A DNA stretch of 38,720 nucleotides from a virus. Taxonomy: Duplodnaviria; Heunggongvirae; Uroviricota; Caudoviricetes. A model generated the notes under the pieces. That model saw only the letters and a list, made by a program, of their open reading frames with translations. It made no database searches and was not told where the DNA came from. Both the position numbers and the translations under genes were made by a program. Position 1 is the stretch's first letter. Every line of letters begins with the position of its first letter. The stretch is from IMG/VR virus record IMGVR_UViG_2563366844_000005, one strand, 5' to 3'. Positions 1 through 27,817 of this stretch are shown here, one piece after another.

Positions 1-249
1 ATGCGTATTGAGATCTGCATAGCCAAAGAAAAAATGACTAAAATGCCAAACGGTGCTGTGGATGCGTTAAAGGAAGAATTAACCCGACGCATCAGTAAAC
101 GTTATGACGATGTAGAGGTGATCGTAAAAGCCACCAGCAACGATGGCCTTTCTGTTACGCGCACCGCCGATAAAGATTCAGCTAAAACTTTTGTTCAGGA
201 AACTCTGAAAGATACCTGGGAGTCTGCTGACGAGTGGTTTGTTCACTAA
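1..249 (+). CDS. DinI-family DNA-damage-inducible protein
   Basis: 82 aa; N-terminal MRIE and C-terminal [14 protein letters not shown] closely match E. coli DinI as I recall it. Starts at base 1, so promoter and any LexA box lie outside the window. Confidence 0.75.
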
Positions 250-22902: not shown

Positions 22903-23050
22903 AATCGGTCTTACCTATCAATCGTTTGTTCACATTTCCAAAAAAAAGTTTTCGAACCTGCGGCGATGTGAGGAAGGGTCAGGCGGCGGTACTGAGCAGC
23001 CAGGGTTGCAGAGATTTGACCCGCCCCTCCCCTACAGATGGGAACCGTTA

Positions 23051-23401
23051 TCAATTGATGCGTTCGCGCGCTGTTTTTGCTTTATGACAGGGCCAGCACA
23101 GACTCTGCAGGTTACTGTCTGCATCCGTGCCACCATGAGCTTTCGGAATGATGTGGTCCACAGTTCTGGCTTCAACGGCTCTCCCATTGCGCAGGCAGTT
23201 CTGACACAGATGATTATCACGCTTCAGTATGCGCGCACGTATGGCATCCCATTTCGAGCCATAGCCACGCTGGTGGCGGCTCAGTCCGCGTTGATGCTGT
23301 ACCCATCCTTCGCCACGATGTTTATCGCAGTAACCAGAACTGTCTGTGGTTGTACCTGCACATCCACGCTTACGGCAGGCGCGTGAGATTCGTGATGGCA
23401 T
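23051..23401 (-). CDS. HNH endonuclease (terminase-associated)
   Basis: 116 aa; Cys pairs plus His-Asn-His motif (CQNC ... VDHIIPKAHGGTDADSNLQSLCWPCH). Confidence 0.85.
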   Translation of the reverse strand: MPSRISRACRKRGCAGTTTDSSGYCDKHRGEGWVQHQRGLSRHQRGYGSKWDAIRARILKRDNHLCQNCLRNGRAVEARTVDHIIPKAHGGTDADSNLQSLCWPCHKAKTARERIN

Positions 23402-23443
23402 AAATACCTCATACCCTACGAAATGTTTACCACGATAAAAAGG

Positions 23444-23908
23444 CTACTTAATGCACTGAGTGCGGATATACTCCTGTGCCCCTTCCAGTTGCATCTGCAT
23501 CGTCATCAGCCGCTCTCTGAGGGTGAAATAATCCCGTTCAGCGGTGTCTGCCAGTCGGGGGCTGGTTGCATTATCCACGCCGGAGGCGGTGGTGGCTTCA
23601 CGCACTGACTGACAGACTGCTTTGATGTGCAACCGACGACGACCAGCGACAACATCAGCGCGCAGAGTTTCATTTTCAGCTTTCGCATTGGCTAATTCTC
23701 TCGAGTACTTTGCATCGAGCGCAGCAACATCACGCTGACGCTGCTGCATGTCAGCGATGGTGGCGATCGCCAGCTTCAGCTCACTGACTTTTTTATCACG
23801 CTGTTCTTTGTAGGCGATGGCGTTATCACGGTAATGATTGACCGCCCACGACAGGCAGACGATGATGCAGATAACCAGAGCATAAATAATCGCGGCGACT
23901 CTGCTCAC
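23444..23908 (-). CDS. Rz: Spanin inner-membrane subunit Rz
   Basis: Closely matches lambda Rz as recalled ([29 protein letters not shown]...); probable GTG start at 23908 overlapping the endolysin stop (GTGA). Confidence 0.85.
23506..23688 (-). CDS. Rz1: Spanin outer-membrane lipoprotein Rz1, embedded in Rz in another frame
   Basis: 60 aa; lipobox LVVVGC; proline run PPPPPAW; matches lambda Rz1 as recalled. Confidence 0.85.
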
Positions 23909-24438
23909 TGATCTATTCCCCAACAGGCTAATGCGCTTTCCTGGTCACGACGAATAACCTGACCGTAACAGTTATTTGAACGAATGCGGCAATCACGGCC
24001 ACCGTCCTTAATCCACCAGCGAATCGCCTCGCATGCACCTTTACGATCACCGGCATTCAGCCGCTTATAAAACGTCGACGGGAAACACTTACCAGGGCCA
24101 ATGTTATAGGGACAAAATGACGCTATACCCGCTTTCTGTGGCTCGGTCAGTGGTACTTTAATATTACGTTCCACCCATGCCAGCGCCTTATCACGTTCAA
24201 TAGCGTTAACCTGGTCGCACTTTTCCTTCGACAGCTTCATTCCCGGTATGACGGGCTTACCATCCACCATTGTGGCACCGCGGCAGATGGTCCATATACC
24301 GGAACCATCACGGTATGCCGTTGTGTGATTACCCTCTTTTTCGTTCAGAAACTGGTCAAGAATGTCAGGCGCAGGCGCACCTGCGGCAATCAGCGCCAGA
24401 ACGACAGCCGACAGACCGTATTTGATTTTTGCGCTCAT
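23905..24438 (-). CDS. SAR endolysin (lysozyme-like)
   Basis: N-terminal weakly hydrophobic Gly/Ala-rich signal-anchor-release segment from the ATG at 24438 (the track ORF begins with TTG at 24477); paired with a pinholin. Confidence 0.85.
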
Positions 24439-24574
24439 GGATATGGATGGATATTTATCAGGATTTATCGGTTCCAAATCCCTGGATATGTTTAGTACTC
24501 AGCCCGGCAGGTAGTTCCTCGCAGGGGTAATACTGACAATGTGAAGATCACAGAACAAACAGTAAGGACAACAT

Positions 24575-24856
24575 ATGAGCGATACTTATTTATCTAAAAA
24601 AGCTTTTGCTGATATTCTGGCCATCAGACAGGTTGTCATACTCCTGGTTAACGATTTACCAGATGAGAAAAAAGCAATTATTAAAGATTTGCTTACTAAA
24701 TCAGCTGACACTTTTTCATCAAAAAAATTACCCGAATCCCTGGAAACCCCGCAGGAAGTTTTAGACGAAATGAACAAATTGATTGCCGAATCATGCGCTA
24801 CTCTTGCTGAGACAATTTTAATTCCTGAAGAAGCTTCGTCGTCATACCATCAATAG
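24575..24856 (+). CDS. Hypothetical small acidic protein on the opposite strand inside the lysis cassette
   Basis: 93 aa; AT-rich; AAGGA SD 6 nt before the ATG; 3' end overlaps the 3' end of the convergent 174-aa gene by 59 nt. Confidence 0.5.
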   Translation: MSDTYLSKKAFADILAIRQVVILLVNDLPDEKKAIIKDLLTKSADTFSSKKLPESLETPQEVLDEMNKLIAESCATLAETILIPEEASSSYHQ

Positions 24857-25322
24857 TTTGCTGAACAGCTTTAGCAACAAACGCCACCCCATTTTCGTGG
24901 TGGCGTTGTCGCTCATTTACGGCTCGCATCGCGGCAACTATCGCACGACTTATGTCATCCCCGGCGTTTTTTTCCCGCCCTGCGCGCCTGGTGTTGGCTT
25001 TAACTGCACTATCAAAACCCGCAAGATGAGGACGATCGTGTTTATTGGCAGAATTTTCAATCTTAATGGAGTACTGATGCTGCAGATAAGACTCAACTTT
25101 TTCTGACAATTTTTCTGCCACTCCCAGGAAGACCTGCCTGACGCTCATTCTGGCTGCTGCCTCATAAAACTCCAGCGCGGCACCTTCAACACGGTCCATG
25201 GTGATGACCAGGTCAAAAATTTCACCGTCAAAGCGTTTTTTGTCCCGTAATGCTACAGTTACCGCAACTTTATTCTCAAAATTGCGGATCCCTTTCACAA
25301 TCAGTTCATAGTTTTGAGTCAT
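24798..25322 (-). CDS. Hypothetical protein between holin and endolysin
   Basis: 174-aa soluble protein; ATG 5 nt after the holin stop with a GGGGAGAG SD. Confidence 0.6.
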   Translation of the reverse strand: MTQNYELIVKGIRNFENKVAVTVALRDKKRFDGEIFDLVITMDRVEGAALEFYEAAARMSVRQVFLGVAEKLSEKVESYLQHQYSIKIENSANKHDRPHLAGFDSAVKANTRRAGREKNAGDDISRAIVAAMRAVNERQRHHENGVAFVAKAVQQTIDGMTTKLLQELKLSQQE

Positions 25323-25326
25323 TGAA

Positions 25327-25542
25327 TTACTCTCCCCGTGCAGCCTTACGCTTGTCTTCTCTGATTTTGAAGTACAGATTTGTCAGATAAGTCAGGAAGC
25401 CCAGAACCAGACTCCCCAGTACACCAATCGCAGCCCACTGTGACGGACTGACCTGATCAAGCCACTGTAAAAACCAGTAGCCAGCACTGCCTGCGGAGGT
25501 GCCGTAGGCAATGCCCGTTGAAATTTTGTCCATGGATTTCAT
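25327..25542 (-). CDS. Class II holin (phage 21 S-like pinholin) with dual-start motif
   Basis: 71 aa, MKSMDK... with two in-frame Met codons (1 and 4), two transmembrane segments, charged C-terminus; strong GGAGGTGAGG SD. Confidence 0.85.
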
Positions 25543-25811
25543 AGCCTCACCTCCGCAAATAACGGATGGCGTAATTCTTATATCGGGAAGGGGAAAAAGA
25601 AGGCCGCAGCGTAACTATCACTGAGGAGTTCAGGATAGCCAGTGGCTACGGCTCAGTTTGGGTTGTGCTGTTGCTGGGCGGCGATGACGCCTGTACGCAT
25701 TTGGTAATCCGGTTCTGCTTCCGGCATTCGCTTAATTCAGCACAACGGAAAGAGCACTCGGTACATTTAAGCCAAGCCCCATAAGGGAGAATGCTCTTAC
25801 CTGTTGTGCAG

Positions 25812-25848
25812 AAAAAAAACCACACGGCAGCGGGTTTAAGCTGTGTGG
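25812..25848 (-). terminator. Strong intrinsic terminator in the late-operon leader (candidate tR')
   Basis: Minus-strand hairpin CCACAC...GUGUGG followed by eight U, about 270 nt upstream of the holin. Confidence 0.55.
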
Positions 25849-25951
25849 CGAAGTTACCTCTCTTCACCAAGAATTCGGTAATAAAATAACTTGTGGCGCT
25901 CTCGTTTTTATGCCGATAAAATAAACGGTCCACTTTCAAATGGAGCGATTC

Positions 25952-26872
25952 ATGATTTTTCTCAGAACTGAAAACGGCATCGAGAAACTTGAAAACTGGG
26001 AGGAAATTATATCCAGACCAAACTTTGTCACCGCTATAGACAAAGGAGTTCAACAACTTGAGGAGATAATTGGTTACTACAAATTTAAAGAAGAAATCCA
26101 CTGTGGTCTAACTGGTTGCAACCAACCACATCAAATGGGTTATATTGTAAAAACATCTAGTGGCATTGAAACCAACATCGGAAATAAATGTGGTAAAAAC
26201 GAATTTGGTGTGGAATTTGGTGAAAACGTTCTTAGTTTCAATAAACTTATGCAACTCGAAACCAATCGGGAAATTATTAGTACCGCAAAAAGTAAATGTG
26301 AAGCGTGGCAAAAAAATATTGAAACGATACGAAATATCAAACCCACAATAGATTATCTATCTTCTACCATCGAAAATAGTAAAAATTCCAATTACGCCGG
26401 AAGACTTGGTGCTACAGAAATTCGTTTTTTGACCAAGAGCCAGACAGGCCTTGTAACCCTTTCTGAAGTGGAAACTGATAAGAATACCAAAACAATTCTG
26501 TTCGCAATGAATGAACACATGCGCGAGTCTGGAGAAGCAATAAGTGAATTCTACATAGGAAAAGTATCATTTAGTCATGTTCTTTTACCAGAAAACAATC
26601 TTCGTGATTTTTTTGTTGCGCTCAAAGAAGATCTAAAAAAAATTCAGTGTATTGATCTACAAACAGCCCCAAGCCCAGAAATTTCTAATGTTGCCAAAAT
26701 TGCCAGTTCAATCGAAGAACGAATCAAACGATTAAAAAAACTGAAACATGAAGCCAGTAAATTCCTAACTAAAAAAAATCTGCGTCCCATCGCAAACAAA
26801 ATAAAATACTCATCGACAGCGGATGAACTTGAATTCCATAATTTCGAACGCTTTTTAAACGGGCTGAAATGA
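25952..26872 (+). CDS. Hypothetical 307-aa protein, AT-rich moron antisense to the late operon
   Basis: Uninterrupted ORF in a visibly AT-rich block; second ATG at 25952 has a GGAG SD at 6 nt; Lys/Glu/Asn/Ile-rich; no family recognised; stable hairpin immediately 3'. Confidence 0.65.
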   Translation: MIFLRTENGIEKLENWEEIISRPNFVTAIDKGVQQLEEIIGYYKFKEEIHCGLTGCNQPHQMGYIVKTSSGIETNIGNKCGKNEFGVEFGENVLSFNKLMQLETNREIISTAKSKCEAWQKNIETIRNIKPTIDYLSSTIENSKNSNYAGRLGATEIRFLTKSQTGLVTLSEVETDKNTKTILFAMNEHMRESGEAISEFYIGKVSFSHVLLPENNLRDFFVALKEDLKKIQCIDLQTAPSPEISNVAKIASSIEERIKRLKKLKHEASKFLTKKNLRPIANKIKYSSTADELEFHNFERFLNGLK

Positions 26873-26896
26873 TAGAAGCCCCGAAAGGGGCTTCTA
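26873..26896. terminator. Stable 10-bp stem with GAAA tetraloop after the moron gene (possible bidirectional terminator or RNA end element)
   Basis: TAGAAGCCCC-GAAA-GGGGCTTCTA; no strong U-tract on either side. Confidence 0.45.
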
Positions 26897-26986
26897 TCAA
26901 AATCATTTACGCATTATTCCGCATGCTCAAAAGAATACATGACAGATTCGGACAAAATCAAGTGCAATGTCGCAAAAAGTCTAAGT

Positions 26987-27817
26987 TTAGTTCACATCAT
27001 CACCAAAACTTGTCACATTCTGAAAAGCAATATCGGCCTTATGCTCTTCCTGGTGACAAATGTCAACCAGAGAATCAAGAAACGGCTTCCAATTACGTGT
27101 CCATGTCCTGACATGTAGCTCGGGTATCCGCTTCAGTACAACTTTATATACTGTGGTAGACGGTATCGTGGAAAATCCATTTCCGCTACAACGTTCGCAG
27201 ATTTTAAACACTGGCACACCACGCTCGCTTGTGGCTTTGCGGTCCAGTACCTCTCCCTTTCCACCACAACGACACCTGGCACTTATCACTCCCTTCCCTT
27301 TACATACATCGCAAACGACTGGTACAACTTCTGTTACCTCTGTCCATTTCTCCCAGTCTGACGGTCGAACAGCACGGGAGCGACTGGCCCAATATGGTGC
27401 TTTACCCCATGGGTATGAAACCTTACGAATGACCTGCTTACGGGGTGTTAGTCCGGTACCACTGCAACTATGGCATGTTACGCTGGTGGACGCCGATCGG
27501 GAATACTCAGCAAAAGCAAACTGCGCCAGCACCAGCATACACCAGCCAAATTCACCACCAGCTGCTTTACGCACATTCTTCGGTGCAATTTCCATCGCGT
27601 GACGCGCCAGCGCCTGGACTGCCATCTGCTCATCAGTCTTGCTGATACCTGCCTTCCCGAAGAAGGCCACCAGACCAAACCGCTCACGATTGCTGGTGGT
27701 ACCAATAGCCGCCATAACATCGGTGCCTGTAAGACGTTCCGGAGAGGTTCCTTTCACATCATCGCCGATATACATTCCCTGAGGACTGAAGTATTTTAGG
27801 GATGCCTCAAGCTTCAT
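26987..27817 (-). CDS. Putative late-gene regulator at the Q position, with DnaJ-type zinc-finger repeats
   Basis: 276 aa; four Cys repeats (CHSCSGTG, CDVCKGKG, CRCGGKG, CERCSGNG); last gene before the late leader and lysis genes. Q-family membership not verified. Confidence 0.4.
   Translation of the reverse strand: MKLEASLKYFSPQGMYIGDDVKGTSPERLTGTDVMAAIGTTSNRERFGLVAFFGKAGISKTDEQMAVQALARHAMEIAPKNVRKAAGGEFGWCMLVLAQFAFAEYSRSASTSVTCHSCSGTGLTPRKQVIRKVSYPWGKAPYWASRSRAVRPSDWEKWTEVTEVVPVVCDVCKGKGVISARCRCGGKGEVLDRKATSERGVPVFKICERCSGNGFSTIPSTTVYKVVLKRIPELHVRTWTRNWKPFLDSLVDICHQEEHKADIAFQNVTSFGDDVN

What the first reader, a model, noticed from the sequence alone, without database searches (positions are those of the whole stretch)
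24575..25322. Convergent, 3'-overlapping gene pair inside the lysis cassette
Between the pinholin and the SAR endolysin lies a 174-aa minus-strand gene tightly coupled to the holin, and an AT-rich 93-aa acidic plus-strand gene with a good SD. Their 3' ends overlap by 59 nt, so their transcripts would be mutually antisense. Whether the 93-aa product is a lysis-timing regulator or an unrelated moron cannot be told from sequence.
Basis: partly seen in the sequence, partly recalled or inferred. Interest (0 to 1): 0.5.

Follow-up and report, generated by a model that had tools for sequence, protein, structure and literature searches.

The report
Antisense accessory gene inside lysis operon
Inside an E. 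coli prophage's cell-bursting (lysis) operon sits a conserved pair of tail-to-tail overlapping genes, a YdfR-family late gene and a small backwards-facing gene of unknown function; the pair is real and recurrent, but it looks like a passenger (moron-type) cassette, not a proven lysis regulator.

Summary
A 93-aa + strand ORF (24575-24856) and a 174-aa - strand ORF (24798-25322) overlap by 59 nt at their 3' ends. They lie between a phage-21-type holin and a SAR-type lysozyme.

The 174-aa protein is a YdfR/DUF1327 N-domain (86% identical to K-12 YdfR) followed by a C-terminal extension. RefSeq calls it a pseudogene. The frame is nevertheless open, and it matches 243-aa relatives apart from an in-frame 69-aa segment.

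The 93-aa gene is a real protein gene: dN/dS is about 0.3 between subfamilies, and the predicted product is an acidic three-helix protein. It belongs to a tiny enterobacterial prophage family (phrog_2572) with no known relatives.

The pair travels as a cassette. Three subfamilies all keep the 53-59 nt overlap and a G+C-rich hairpin just past the small gene's stop, inside the partner ORF. In one subfamily the partner is a free-standing 73-aa ORF located after Rz in a lambda-S-type lysis cassette, so the cassette is not tied to pinholin/SAR lysis. Two unrelated antisense small genes occupy the same ydfR-R junction in other phages.

Best reading: a moron-like antisense accessory gene with its own terminator, silenced by late read-through transcription. 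Its function is unknown. A lysis-timing role is not supported.

The parts
24575..24856 (+). 93-aa small acidic helical protein gene (phrog_2572 family; identical or near-identical to RefSeq WP_059332741.1), antisense to the late operon
   Evidence: ORF and SD. phrog_2572 E 4e-40. Annotated as a hypothetical protein in E. coli KP63, MS8345 and APEC E18055. dN/dS 0.29-0.33 between subfamilies, codon positions 3>1>2. In-frame indel variants P0002, P0126, P0130 and P0132. AF2 model: helices 8-26, 30-49, 59-82, pLDDT 72, tail 83-93 disordered. GC 0.37.
24798..25322 (-). 174-aa YdfR/DUF1327-family late gene: N-domain (aa 1-~93), linker, C-terminal helical extension. An in-frame deletion variant of a 243-aa form.
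   Evidence: PF07041 E 4e-46, 155 bits against a 25-bit cut-off. phrog_34145 matched over the full length. 86% identity to K-12 YdfR over aa 1-99. P0004 and P0005 (243 aa) share both ends and carry a 69-aa in-frame insert. PGAP calls it a pseudogene 'missing C-terminus'. AF2 pLDDT is only 44; helices predicted at 121-139 and 145-173.
24798..24856 (.). 59-nt 3'-3' overlap of the two ORFs; encodes the C-terminal tails of both proteins
   Evidence: The same 59-nt overlap is seen in L006/L007 and in the C-type loci L090 and L097; it is 53 nt in B-type loci. The small-protein tail is predicted disordered. Substitutions in the overlap are non-synonymous in both frames.
24881..24908 (+). Conserved G+C-rich hairpin (AACGCCACC-N10-GGTGGCGTT) 25 nt past the small gene's stop, inside the 174-aa ORF (codons QRHHENGVAF). 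Inferred transcription terminator or 3'-end stabiliser of the small gene.
   Evidence: Fold energy z = -4.0 on the + strand and -4.4 on the - strand. The hairpin sits at the same position in all three subfamilies. In B-type loci it is followed by T8. The 8-bp core is kept in all 8 distinct sequences, with one compensatory G-C to A-U change. The tool's terminator scan did not flag it: the loop exceeds 8 nt, and in the window the U-tract is poor.
24858..24877 (+). Second, window-type-specific hairpin (TTGCTGAACAGCTTTAGCAA) immediately after the small gene's stop codon
   Evidence: Part of the MFE structure. Present in A-type sequences only.
24464..24492 (+). Candidate weak promoter of the small gene: TTTATC (24464-24469), 17 nt spacer, TATGTT (24487-24492). 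Inferred only.
   Evidence: The hexamers and 17-nt spacing are conserved in A, B and C subfamilies while the spacer varies, including C-type loci where no R gene is adjacent. The match to consensus is only 7 of 12, and the tool's sigma-70 scan found no + strand site.
25327..25542 (-). Phage-21-type class II holin (pinholin family), 71 aa, MKSM dual start; upstream neighbour in the late operon
   Evidence: PF04971 E 1.4e-35; phrog_9876 and phrog_20 holin.
23905..24438 (-). Lysozyme with an N-terminal SAR-like segment (177 aa from ATG 24436-24438); downstream neighbour, reached by late transcription only after crossing the small gene in antisense
   Evidence: PF00959 E 1.3e-24; phrog_7 endolysin. 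Homologues are annotated as 534-nt genes.

Best explanation
The interval holds a conserved two-gene convergent cassette carried as a passenger in the late (lysis) operon of an E. coli lambdoid prophage.

Gene 1 is the 174-aa gene. It is translated as part of the Q-dependent late transcript, immediately after the holin. It consists of a YdfR/DUF1327 N-domain, a linker and a helical C-terminal tail. In K-12 the YdfR N-domain binds the catalytic half of RNase E.

Gene 2 is the 93-aa gene. It is an independent, AT-rich, moron-like unit facing the other way, with its own Shine-Dalgarno and a weak conserved promoter-like element. A conserved hairpin 25 nt past its stop lies inside gene 1's coding sequence and most likely ends or stabilises its transcript.

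Because late RNA polymerase must cross the whole of gene 2 in antisense to reach the endolysin gene, expression of the two genes is predicted to be mutually exclusive. The small acidic three-helix protein would be made in the lysogen or early. It would be shut off by transcriptional collision and antisense pairing once Q-antiterminated late transcription starts.

Shown here:
- both ORFs exist and are conserved
- the small gene is under protein-level purifying selection
- the overlap and the hairpin are conserved
- the cassette is mobile and independent of lysis-gene type

Inferred:
- the promoter
- the terminator function of the hairpin
- lysogen expression
- mutual exclusion

Unknown: the biochemical role of the small protein.
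For: 1. The cassette is a unit. Small-gene homologues fall into three subfamilies: A is the window type, B the 2H10/PhiR5_1 type, C the P0142 type (39-55% aa identity). Each is overlapped at its 3' end by a convergent ORF, by 59, 53 and 59 nt respectively.

2. In C-type loci the partner is a free-standing 73-aa ORF that starts at the Rz (DUF2514) stop. Its last 35 aa are 43% identical to the B-type YdfR tail (E 3e-5). Its unconstrained N-half has dN/dS 0.33.

3. The small gene is a real protein gene: dN/dS about 0.3, in-frame indels, a conserved SD and a three-helix AF2 model.

4. The hairpin is conserved in position in all subfamilies, carries one compensatory change, and is followed by T8 in B-type loci. 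It is lost in P0095-type proteins, which lack the phrog_2572 gene.

5. Moron traits: GC 0.37 against 0.50 for the surroundings. Presence/absence polymorphism: K-12 Qin lacks the block 24439-~25017, and 606R7 lacks it. The junction is a hot spot with two other unrelated antisense small genes, phrog_2411 and phrog_1853.

6. Independence from pinholin/SAR lysis: C-type loci have a PF05106 holin and a different endolysin.

7. The late-operon layout (Q at 26987-27817, then S, ydfR-like, R, Rz, HNH, terminase, all on the - strand) forces antisense read-through of the small gene.

8. The long ydfR frame is maintained. Length variants of 169, 171, 174, 176, 183, 211 and 243 aa all end at the same C-terminus. 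B-type pairs are annotated intact in 293 of 5426 complete E. coli genomes.

9. The YdfR N-domain binds the RNase E N-terminal half and co-purifies RNA (PMC13232886).
Against: - No consensus sigma-70 promoter was found upstream of the small gene. The proposed element matches only 7 of 12 positions, and in A/B loci it doubles as the 5' leader of R.
- In the window the hairpin lacks a good U-tract, and its loop exceeds the usual size, so the terminator scans missed it. The covariation evidence rests on a single compensatory event.
- The C-terminal 37-40 codons of the YdfR-type ORF show dN/dS 0.7-1.4 and no codon-position bias between subfamilies. Protein-level function of the tail is therefore not demonstrated.
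- Within-type pN/pS values are noisy: 0.3-1.0 across the non-overlap segments, and undefined or above 1 in the overlap, where synonymous differences are almost absent.
- AF2 confidence for the 174-aa protein is low (pLDDT 44).
- The constant association of the phrog_2572 gene with the coiled-coil tail module could mean a functional partnership and not a passive passenger.
- There are no expression data.
Confidence: 0.5

Rival explanations
1. Cognate protein pair. The small acidic protein binds and neutralises the C-terminal coiled-coil module of the YdfR-family protein, or otherwise works with it, in the manner of an antidote/effector or immunity pair. It would for example hold an RNase E-directed late effector in check until late transcription silences the antidote. 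The convergent overlap keeps the two co-inherited.
For: In every intact locus found, the phrog_2572 gene is paired with the homologous tail module, whether that module is fused to YdfR or free-standing. The free-standing 73-aa partner is under purifying selection in its N-half. The small proteins are acidic (pI 4.5-4.6) and the window's C-extension is basic (pI 9.8). YdfR-family proteins have variable C-termini, each with a different convergent small gene.
Against: Physical overlap alone explains the co-inheritance. Charge complementarity fails in the B type, where the module has pI 5.0. The phrog_2411 antisense gene pairs with a short YdfR that has no extra module. There is no toxin, immunity or defence family hit. 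The orientation is unlike known type II TA or polymorphic-toxin operons. No complex prediction was possible with the tools.
Confidence: 0.18
2. Only the small gene and the YdfR N-domain matter. The C-terminal 75 codons of the 174-aa ORF are incidental read-through into the inserted cassette. This is RefSeq's 'pseudogene, missing C-terminus' view, under which the overlap has no meaning beyond where the first stop codon happens to fall.
For: PGAP annotates the A-type ORF as a 99-codon fragment in three genomes. The tail shows dN/dS 0.7-1.4 and no codon-position bias. The 'conserved' KRRDE..AAF / QRHHEN..VAF peptide is encoded by the hairpin arms, so RNA or DNA constraint can explain it. AF2 is unconfident for residues 65-174. 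Truncated or frameshifted variants exist: P0006-P0008 and L085. K-12 YdfR works as an RNase E binder through residues 1-72 alone.
Against: Seven length variants keep the same frame and C-terminus. The chance of 144 stop-free codons is 0.001. The 69-aa insert has pN/pS 0.33. The module exists as a free-standing, translationally coupled ORF with dN/dS 0.33 in its N-half. It also forms the N-terminus of a 222-aa protein in STEC1587. There is no frameshift or premature stop, so 174 residues will be translated in any case.
Confidence: 0.22
3. Lysis-timing regulator. The 93-aa product, or its mRNA acting as antisense to the S-R intercistronic region, tunes holin/endolysin expression or the timing of pinholin triggering.
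For: The location is between S and R. The small-gene mRNA is fully complementary to the late transcript segment that precedes R. The hairpin could also attenuate non-antiterminated - strand transcription before R.
Against: The cassette also sits after Rz in phages with lambda-S-type holins and other endolysins. It is absent from many phages with near-identical S and R genes. The protein has no membrane segment and no similarity to antiholins or lysis inhibitors.
Confidence: 0.08
4. The + strand ORF is not translated. The interval is a non-coding spacer, or it encodes only a cis-antisense RNA.
For: No strong promoter was detected. The family is very small, with 12 representatives among 1.84 billion proteins. 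No known fold or domain was found.
Against: dN/dS is about 0.3 with a 3>1>2 substitution pattern across three subfamilies. The start codon and SD are conserved. Only in-frame indels are seen. AF2 predicts a helical fold at pLDDT 72 from a shallow alignment. There is no Rfam match.
Confidence: 0.04

Closest known systems
Phage morons (lambda bor and lom; HK97-type morons): autonomous promoter-gene-terminator units inserted between late genes and expressed from the prophage
   Same: An AT-rich small gene whose composition differs from its neighbours. It shows presence/absence polymorphism between otherwise similar phages. It has its own SD and a hairpin right after the stop. It lies in the late region, and like bor its orientation is opposite to late transcription.
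   Different: Here the gene's 3' end and its hairpin lie inside the neighbouring late ORF, and the two have been inherited together as a cassette across three subfamilies. The promoter is only weakly predicted. Expression in lysogens is untested. No membrane or lipoprotein features like those of Bor or Lom.
E. coli K-12 Qin prophage YdfR (P76160; Pfam DUF1327), located between essQ/essD-type holin and rrrQ
   Same: The N-terminal 99 residues are 86% identical. The genes occupy the same position directly after a phage-21-type holin. By homology the N-domain is likely to bind the catalytic half of RNase E (PMC13232886).
   Different: K-12 YdfR is 103 aa and abuts the lysozyme start. It lacks the 75-residue extension, the hairpin and the antisense gene: the block 24439-~25017 is missing. 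It may be a deletion derivative, but the direction of the event is not resolved.
Convergent cis-antisense pairs with 3' overlap, e.g. type I toxin-antitoxin loci such as B. subtilis txpA/RatA and bsrG/SR4
   Same: Convergent transcription units whose 3' ends overlap, so the RNAs can pair. Both are prophage-borne.
   Different: Both partners here are protein-coding and under protein-level selection, at least the small gene. There is no small hydrophobic toxin. The antisense relation comes mainly from late-operon read-through and not from a dedicated sRNA.
Rz/Rz1 embedded spanin genes of the same lysis cassette
   Same: Another case of two proteins encoded by overlapping DNA in lambdoid lysis cassettes. 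It is present in this window (23444-23923 with 23506-23688).
   Different: Rz1 is embedded on the same strand in another frame, and the two products are known to form one functional complex. Here the genes are on opposite strands and only their tails overlap.

Membership tests
YdfR / DUF1327 (PF07041) | N-terminal domain scores above the Pfam gathering threshold | tested here: met
   155.5 bits against a 25-bit cut-off, residues 1-93, E 4.3e-46. 86% identity to K-12 YdfR over residues 1-99.
YdfR / DUF1327 (PF07041) | Gene placed directly downstream of a class II (phage 21-type) holin and upstream of the lysozyme in lambdoid prophages | tested here: met
   the same order holin-ydfR-lysozyme is seen in K-12 Qin, KP63 and phage 606R7.
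YdfR / DUF1327 (PF07041) | Binding of the RNase E N-terminal half through residues 1-72 (reported for K-12 YdfR, PMC13232886) | not testable with these tools
   Homology only.
YdfR / DUF1327 (PF07041) | Full-length agreement with the reference protein used by RefSeq | tested here: not met
   PGAP labels the ORF 'incomplete, missing C-terminus'. The C-terminal 75 residues have no counterpart in the 103-116-aa forms. They do match the 243-aa forms P0004 and P0005.
Phage moron | Own transcription terminator immediately after the gene | tested here: inconclusive
   A conserved stable hairpin lies 25 nt after the stop (z = -4.0) and is followed by T8 in B-type loci. In the window the U-tract is poor, and the scan tool did not call it.
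Phage moron | Own promoter | tested here: inconclusive
   No consensus site was found. A positionally conserved TTTATC-N17-TATGTT element is present in all three subfamilies but matches only 7 of 12 positions.
Phage moron | Base composition distinct from flanking phage genes | tested here: met
   GC 0.37 against 0.50-0.53.
Phage moron | Present in some and absent from other closely related phages at the same junction | tested here: met
Phage moron | Expressed from the repressed prophage | not testable with these tools
   No expression data available.
Type II toxin-antitoxin / polymorphic toxin-immunity pair | Recognisable toxin or immunity domain, or a defence-system model hit | tested here: not met
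   No significant Pfam, NCBIfam or PADLOC hit for the small protein, the 73-aa module or the C-extension. The best hit is HamA at E 0.005 and 14.5 bits, which is not credible.
Type II toxin-antitoxin / polymorphic toxin-immunity pair | Co-directional bicistronic operon | tested here: not met
   The genes are convergent.
Type I toxin-antitoxin (3'-overlapping antisense RNA) | Small hydrophobic membrane toxin plus a non-coding antisense RNA | tested here: not met
   Neither product is hydrophobic (GRAVY -0.08 and -0.47). The antisense partner is coding. No Rfam hit.
Pinholin / SAR-endolysin lysis cassette (phage 21 type), as context only | PF04971 holin with dual start; lysozyme with N-terminal SAR segment; Rz with embedded Rz1 | tested here: met
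   The SAR character is judged from the sequence [24 protein letters not shown] only.
DUF1823 (label given to the B-type small protein in phage PhiR5_1) | Score above the Pfam gathering threshold | tested here: not met
   15.3 bits against a 25-bit cut-off for the B-type protein; no hit for the window protein.

The most novel reading that the evidence does not exclude
The convergent pair is a dedicated switch embedded in the late operon. The small acidic protein, made in the lysogen, would antagonise the YdfR-family RNase E-binding protein through its coiled-coil tail, or would guard against leaky late expression. Q-dependent late transcription would then erase it by collision and antisense pairing. 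The three unrelated antisense small genes at the ydfR-R junction would then be alternative 'cognate' antagonists of a polymorphic late effector family. That would be a new kind of phage effector/antagonist module organised tail-to-tail.
Probability: 0.12. Interest if true: 0.7.

Novelty: new variant of a known kind. Interest (0 to 1): 0.38.

Why it matters
Lambdoid lysis cassettes are among the best-studied gene sets in biology. Even so, about 60% of the YdfR-family loci sampled here carry an uncharacterised backwards-facing small gene between ydfR and the endolysin gene. One family of these genes travels with a piece of the neighbouring late protein and with a hairpin embedded in that protein's coding sequence.

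If the small genes are expressed in lysogens, they are a common but unnoticed class of prophage cargo. The B-type pair is present in about 5% of complete E. coli genomes.

The analysis also has a practical consequence. The K-12 YdfR used in the recent RNase E interaction study matches only the first 99 residues of these longer modular proteins. RefSeq's 'pseudogene' label for the window-type ORF is likely an artefact of comparing it with short references.

The function of either product remains unknown, so the present value is descriptive.

Tried and rejected
- Functional assignment of the 93-aa protein failed. Pfam, NCBIfam and PADLOC gave nothing, and PHROGs gave only an unknown-function family. 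A PDB profile search gave only noise. Foldseek against PDB and BFVD had no hit with E<0.1. An HMMER profile search over 1.84 billion representatives found only the three subfamilies plus fragments. The afdb50 library was unavailable.
- The 'DUF1823' label used in phage PhiR5_1 was rejected: 15 bits against a 25-bit cut-off.
- Homology between phrog_2572 proteins and the other junction small proteins (phrog_1853, phrog_2411) was rejected by hhalign, with probability below 1%.
- The structure of the 174-aa protein had pLDDT 44, too poor for a fold search. The PDB profile search gave nothing.
- BLASTP between the window-type C-terminus and the B/C modules was not significant. Homology there rests on the DNA alignment and the shared hairpin.
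- Within-type pN/pS was too noisy to decide whether the tail is selected.
- Rfam had no family at the gathering threshold in the window, and only sub-threshold noise in 23000-27500.
- The genome-contig scan returned one locus only. The metagenome scan for the 73-aa module returned none.
- Literature searches found no paper on the pair. The only functional YdfR paper found was the RNase E interaction study.
- Charge complementarity as evidence for a protein pair was rejected because it is inconsistent across subfamilies.
Full report
**1. What is in the sequence**

The window is an E. coli lambdoid/HK97-like prophage. The interval is 98.9-99.6% identical to the chromosomes of strains KP63, JP538, MS8345 and APEC E18055.

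The late genes run on the minus strand in this order:
- antiterminator Q (26987-27817, PF03589)
- a phage-21-type class II holin (25327-25542, PF04971, MKSM dual start)
- the 174-aa ORF (24798-25322)
- a lysozyme with a SAR-like N-terminus (23905-24438 from the likely ATG; PF00959)
- Rz with an embedded lipoprotein ORF (23444-23923; PF03245)
- an HNH endonuclease, then terminase

The 93-aa ORF (24575-24856) is on the plus strand, in the 320-nt stretch where the minus strand has no ORF. The two ORFs share 59 nt (24798-24856). Their codon phases are 1<->1, 2<->3, 3<->2.

The small gene has an AAGGA Shine-Dalgarno 6 nt before its ATG and a GC content of 0.37, against about 0.50-0.53 for its neighbours. 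The 174-aa ORF starts 4 nt after the holin stop and sits behind a GGGGAGAG motif.

**2. The 174-aa gene**

Residues 1-93 match Pfam DUF1327 (155 bits, cut-off 25). Residues 1-99 are 86% identical to K-12 Qin YdfR.

The rest has no counterpart in the common 103-116-aa YdfR proteins. It is, however, collinear with 243-aa proteins (P0004, P0005). These share both the middle region and the last 46 residues, and carry an extra in-frame 69-aa segment. Contigs encoding the 243-aa form have the same 93-aa gene and the same 59-nt overlap.

RefSeq's pipeline labels the window-type ORF 'DUF1327, incomplete, missing C-terminus' in three genomes, while keeping the 93-aa gene as WP_059332741.1.

I think that label is an artefact of comparison with short references, for these reasons:
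- There is no frameshift or premature stop.
- 75 to 144 stop-free codons are unlikely by chance (0.027 to 0.001).
- Across the family, length variants of 169, 171, 174, 176, 183, 211 and 243 aa all return to the same frame and C-terminus.

Whether the tail has a protein-level function is not settled:
- Between subfamilies, its last 37-40 codons give dN/dS 0.7-1.4 with no codon-position bias.
- Within-type values are noisy.
- AlphaFold is unconfident beyond residue 65. Mean pLDDT is 44, with helices predicted at 121-139 and 145-173.

**3. The 93-aa gene**

It matches only phrog_2572, a family of unknown function.

A profile search of 1.84 billion representative proteins finds just three subfamilies plus fragments:
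- type A, the window type (93 aa)
- type B (86 aa), in phages 2H10 and PhiR5_1 and in many E. coli prophages
- type C (93 aa, P0142)

Between subfamilies dN/dS is 0.29-0.33, and substitutions follow codon positions 3>1>2. Variants differ by in-frame indels. The SD and start codon are conserved.

AlphaFold predicts three helices (8-26, 30-49, 59-82; pLDDT 72) and a disordered tail at 83-93. That tail is the part encoded by the overlap. The protein is acidic (pI 4.6) and not hydrophobic.

No solved or predicted structure and no family model resembles it. It is a real protein gene of unknown function.

**4. The pair is a cassette**

Of about 88 loci carrying a small-gene homologue, 73 have a long DUF1327 ORF overlapping the gene's 3' end by exactly 53 nt (type B) or 59 nt (type A). 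The exceptions are contig ends, frameshifts, N runs or insertions.

The decisive case is type C. There the small gene is overlapped by 59 nt by a free-standing 73-aa ORF whose start overlaps the stop of a DUF2514 Rz-type spanin gene. That lysis cassette has a lambda-S-type holin (PF05106) and a different endolysin.

The last 35 residues of the 73-aa protein are 43% identical to the type B YdfR tail (E 3e-5). Its N-terminal half is constrained neither by the overlap nor by the hairpin, and it shows dN/dS 0.33 between two alleles.

So the unit is a roughly 70-aa helical module on the late strand, a hairpin, and a roughly 90-aa antisense gene. In the window this unit is fused in frame to a YdfR N-domain.

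K-12 Qin lacks precisely the block from the R start codon to about 25017. The YdfR studied experimentally therefore corresponds to only the first 99 residues of the window-type protein. It may be a truncated derivative, but the direction of the event is not resolved.

**5. The hairpin**

The best-conserved DNA outside the coding constraint is a G+C-rich inverted repeat 21-25 nt after the small gene's stop:
- type A, window 24881-24908: AACGCCACC-N10-GGTGGCGTT
- type B: AAAACGCCGC-N12-GCGGCGTTTT followed by T8
- type C: AACGCCGC-N12-GCGGCGTT

It folds well on either strand (z = -4.0 and -4.4 in the window). The 8-bp core is intact in all eight distinct sequences, with one compensatory G-C to A-U change in type A.

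In the YdfR frame the two arms encode KRRDE...AAF (or QRHHEN...VAF in the window). The apparent peptide motif may therefore reflect nucleic-acid constraint.

P0095-type proteins lack the phrog_2572 gene and have also lost one arm. This fits a role tied to the small gene. I infer that the hairpin is the small gene's terminator or 3'-end stabiliser.

Caveats:
- The scan tool did not call it, because the loop exceeds 8 nt.
- The U-tract is poor in the window.
- The covariation rests on one event.

**6. Promoter**

No consensus sigma-70 site precedes the small gene.

A weak element, TTTATC-N17-TAT(G/T)(T/G)T, lies at 24464-24492 in the window. It is conserved in position in A, B and C loci while the spacer varies, including type C loci where no R gene is adjacent. 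It matches only 7 of 12 positions and remains an inference.

**7. Context at the junction**

In 80 IMG/VR loci chosen for a YdfR N-domain:
- about 27 have a short YdfR directly before R
- about 28 carry the phrog_2572 gene
- 12 carry an unrelated 90-aa antisense gene (phrog_2411; 35-nt overlap with a 114-aa YdfR)
- 5 carry a 104-aa phrog_1853-like antisense gene (9-nt gap; 21-nt overlap with a 222-aa protein in STEC1587)

hhalign finds no relation among the three small-protein families.

The ydfR-R junction is thus a hot spot for backwards-facing small genes. The short-YdfR/phrog_2411 case shows that such a gene need not come with a special YdfR tail. This supports a passenger (moron) reading over an obligate protein pair.

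The type B pair is in 293 of 5426 complete E. coli genomes, with both genes annotated intact. The window's type A pair is in 6-7 genomes.

**8. How it most likely works**

Late transcription from downstream of Q must traverse the entire small gene in antisense to reach R. The small-gene transcript, if it ends at the hairpin, would overlap the last roughly 39 codons of the YdfR-type ORF.

The simplest model is mutually exclusive expression:
- The small protein is made from its own weak promoter in the lysogen, or before late transcription begins.
- It is shut off by polymerase collision and RNA pairing once Q-modified polymerase reads through. Such polymerase ignores the hairpin.
- The YdfR-type protein is made late.

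By homology its N-domain binds the catalytic half of RNase E and may bind RNA (PMC13232886). That suggests a role in late mRNA metabolism, but this was not tested here.

What the small protein does is unknown. Its constant association with the tail module keeps a partner/antagonist model alive (about 0.18). A lysis-timing role is unlikely (about 0.08), because the cassette is independent of holin and endolysin type and is dispensable in close relatives.

**9. Comparison with known systems, and novelty**

The closest known kind is the phage moron, such as lambda bor, which is also antisense to late transcription near the lysis genes. This case differs in three ways:
- the 3' overlap
- the hairpin embedded in the neighbour's coding sequence
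- co-inheritance with a piece of that neighbour

It is not a member of any TA or defence family tested.

Both ORFs are already present in databases as hypothetical proteins. The literature searches found no description of the pair.

I rate it a new variant of a known kind, of moderate interest (0.38).

Noticed in passing
window 25940-26872 (+): A second AT-rich (GC 0.36) antisense-oriented gene of 310 aa (phrog_7003, unknown function; no Pfam, NCBIfam or PADLOC hit). It lies between Q and the holin, so late transcripts must also cross it in antisense. Close relatives (KP63, phage 606R7) carry 3-4 tRNA genes at this position instead, and the window has no tRNA gene at all.
   Followed up: partly
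L003 2759-3341; L093 1717-2688; L099-L178: The ydfR-R junction is a hot spot. Two further unrelated antisense small genes sit at the same place in other phages: a 90-aa phrog_2411 gene overlapping a 114-aa YdfR by 35 nt, and a 104-106-aa phrog_1853-like gene overlapping a 222-aa protein by 21 nt or separated from a 268-aa YdfR by a 9-nt gap.
   Followed up: partly
L089 1487-1798 (K-12/C600 Qin) versus window 24439-25017: K-12 YdfR (103 aa), the form used in the 2026 RNase E interaction study, equals the first 99 residues of the window-type protein plus 4 residues. Its stop overlaps the rrrQ start. The whole antisense gene, the hairpin and the C-terminal extension are missing as one block.
   Followed up: yes
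L001 3527-3823; L179 1247-1543; L180 1247-1543: RefSeq (PGAP) annotates the intact 174-aa ORF as a 99-codon pseudogene fragment 'missing C-terminus' in at least three genomes. The homologous B-type long YdfR ORFs are annotated as intact.
   Followed up: yes
P0095, P0059 (296 and 268 aa); L093 2017-2688: YdfR-family proteins are modular: DUF1327 N-domain, linker, coiled-coil module, and in some an extra roughly 130-aa C-terminal domain of unknown function (ending ...PPFKKVPAYWFHPGLTYLKGR). In STEC1587 the coiled-coil module plus this domain occur without the DUF1327 N-domain.
   Followed up: partly
window 24439-24458: A 10-nt tandem duplication (GGATATGGAT) lies immediately upstream of the lysozyme start codon, relative to B-type loci. 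Its effect on R translation initiation is unknown.
   Followed up: no
window 129-197 of the 243-aa relatives (absent between window residues 128 and 129; DNA near 24935): The window's 174-aa protein lacks a 69-aa segment present in 243-aa relatives. This segment has the lowest pN/pS (0.33) of the variable part, so the window copy may be a functionally reduced deletion variant.
   Followed up: partly
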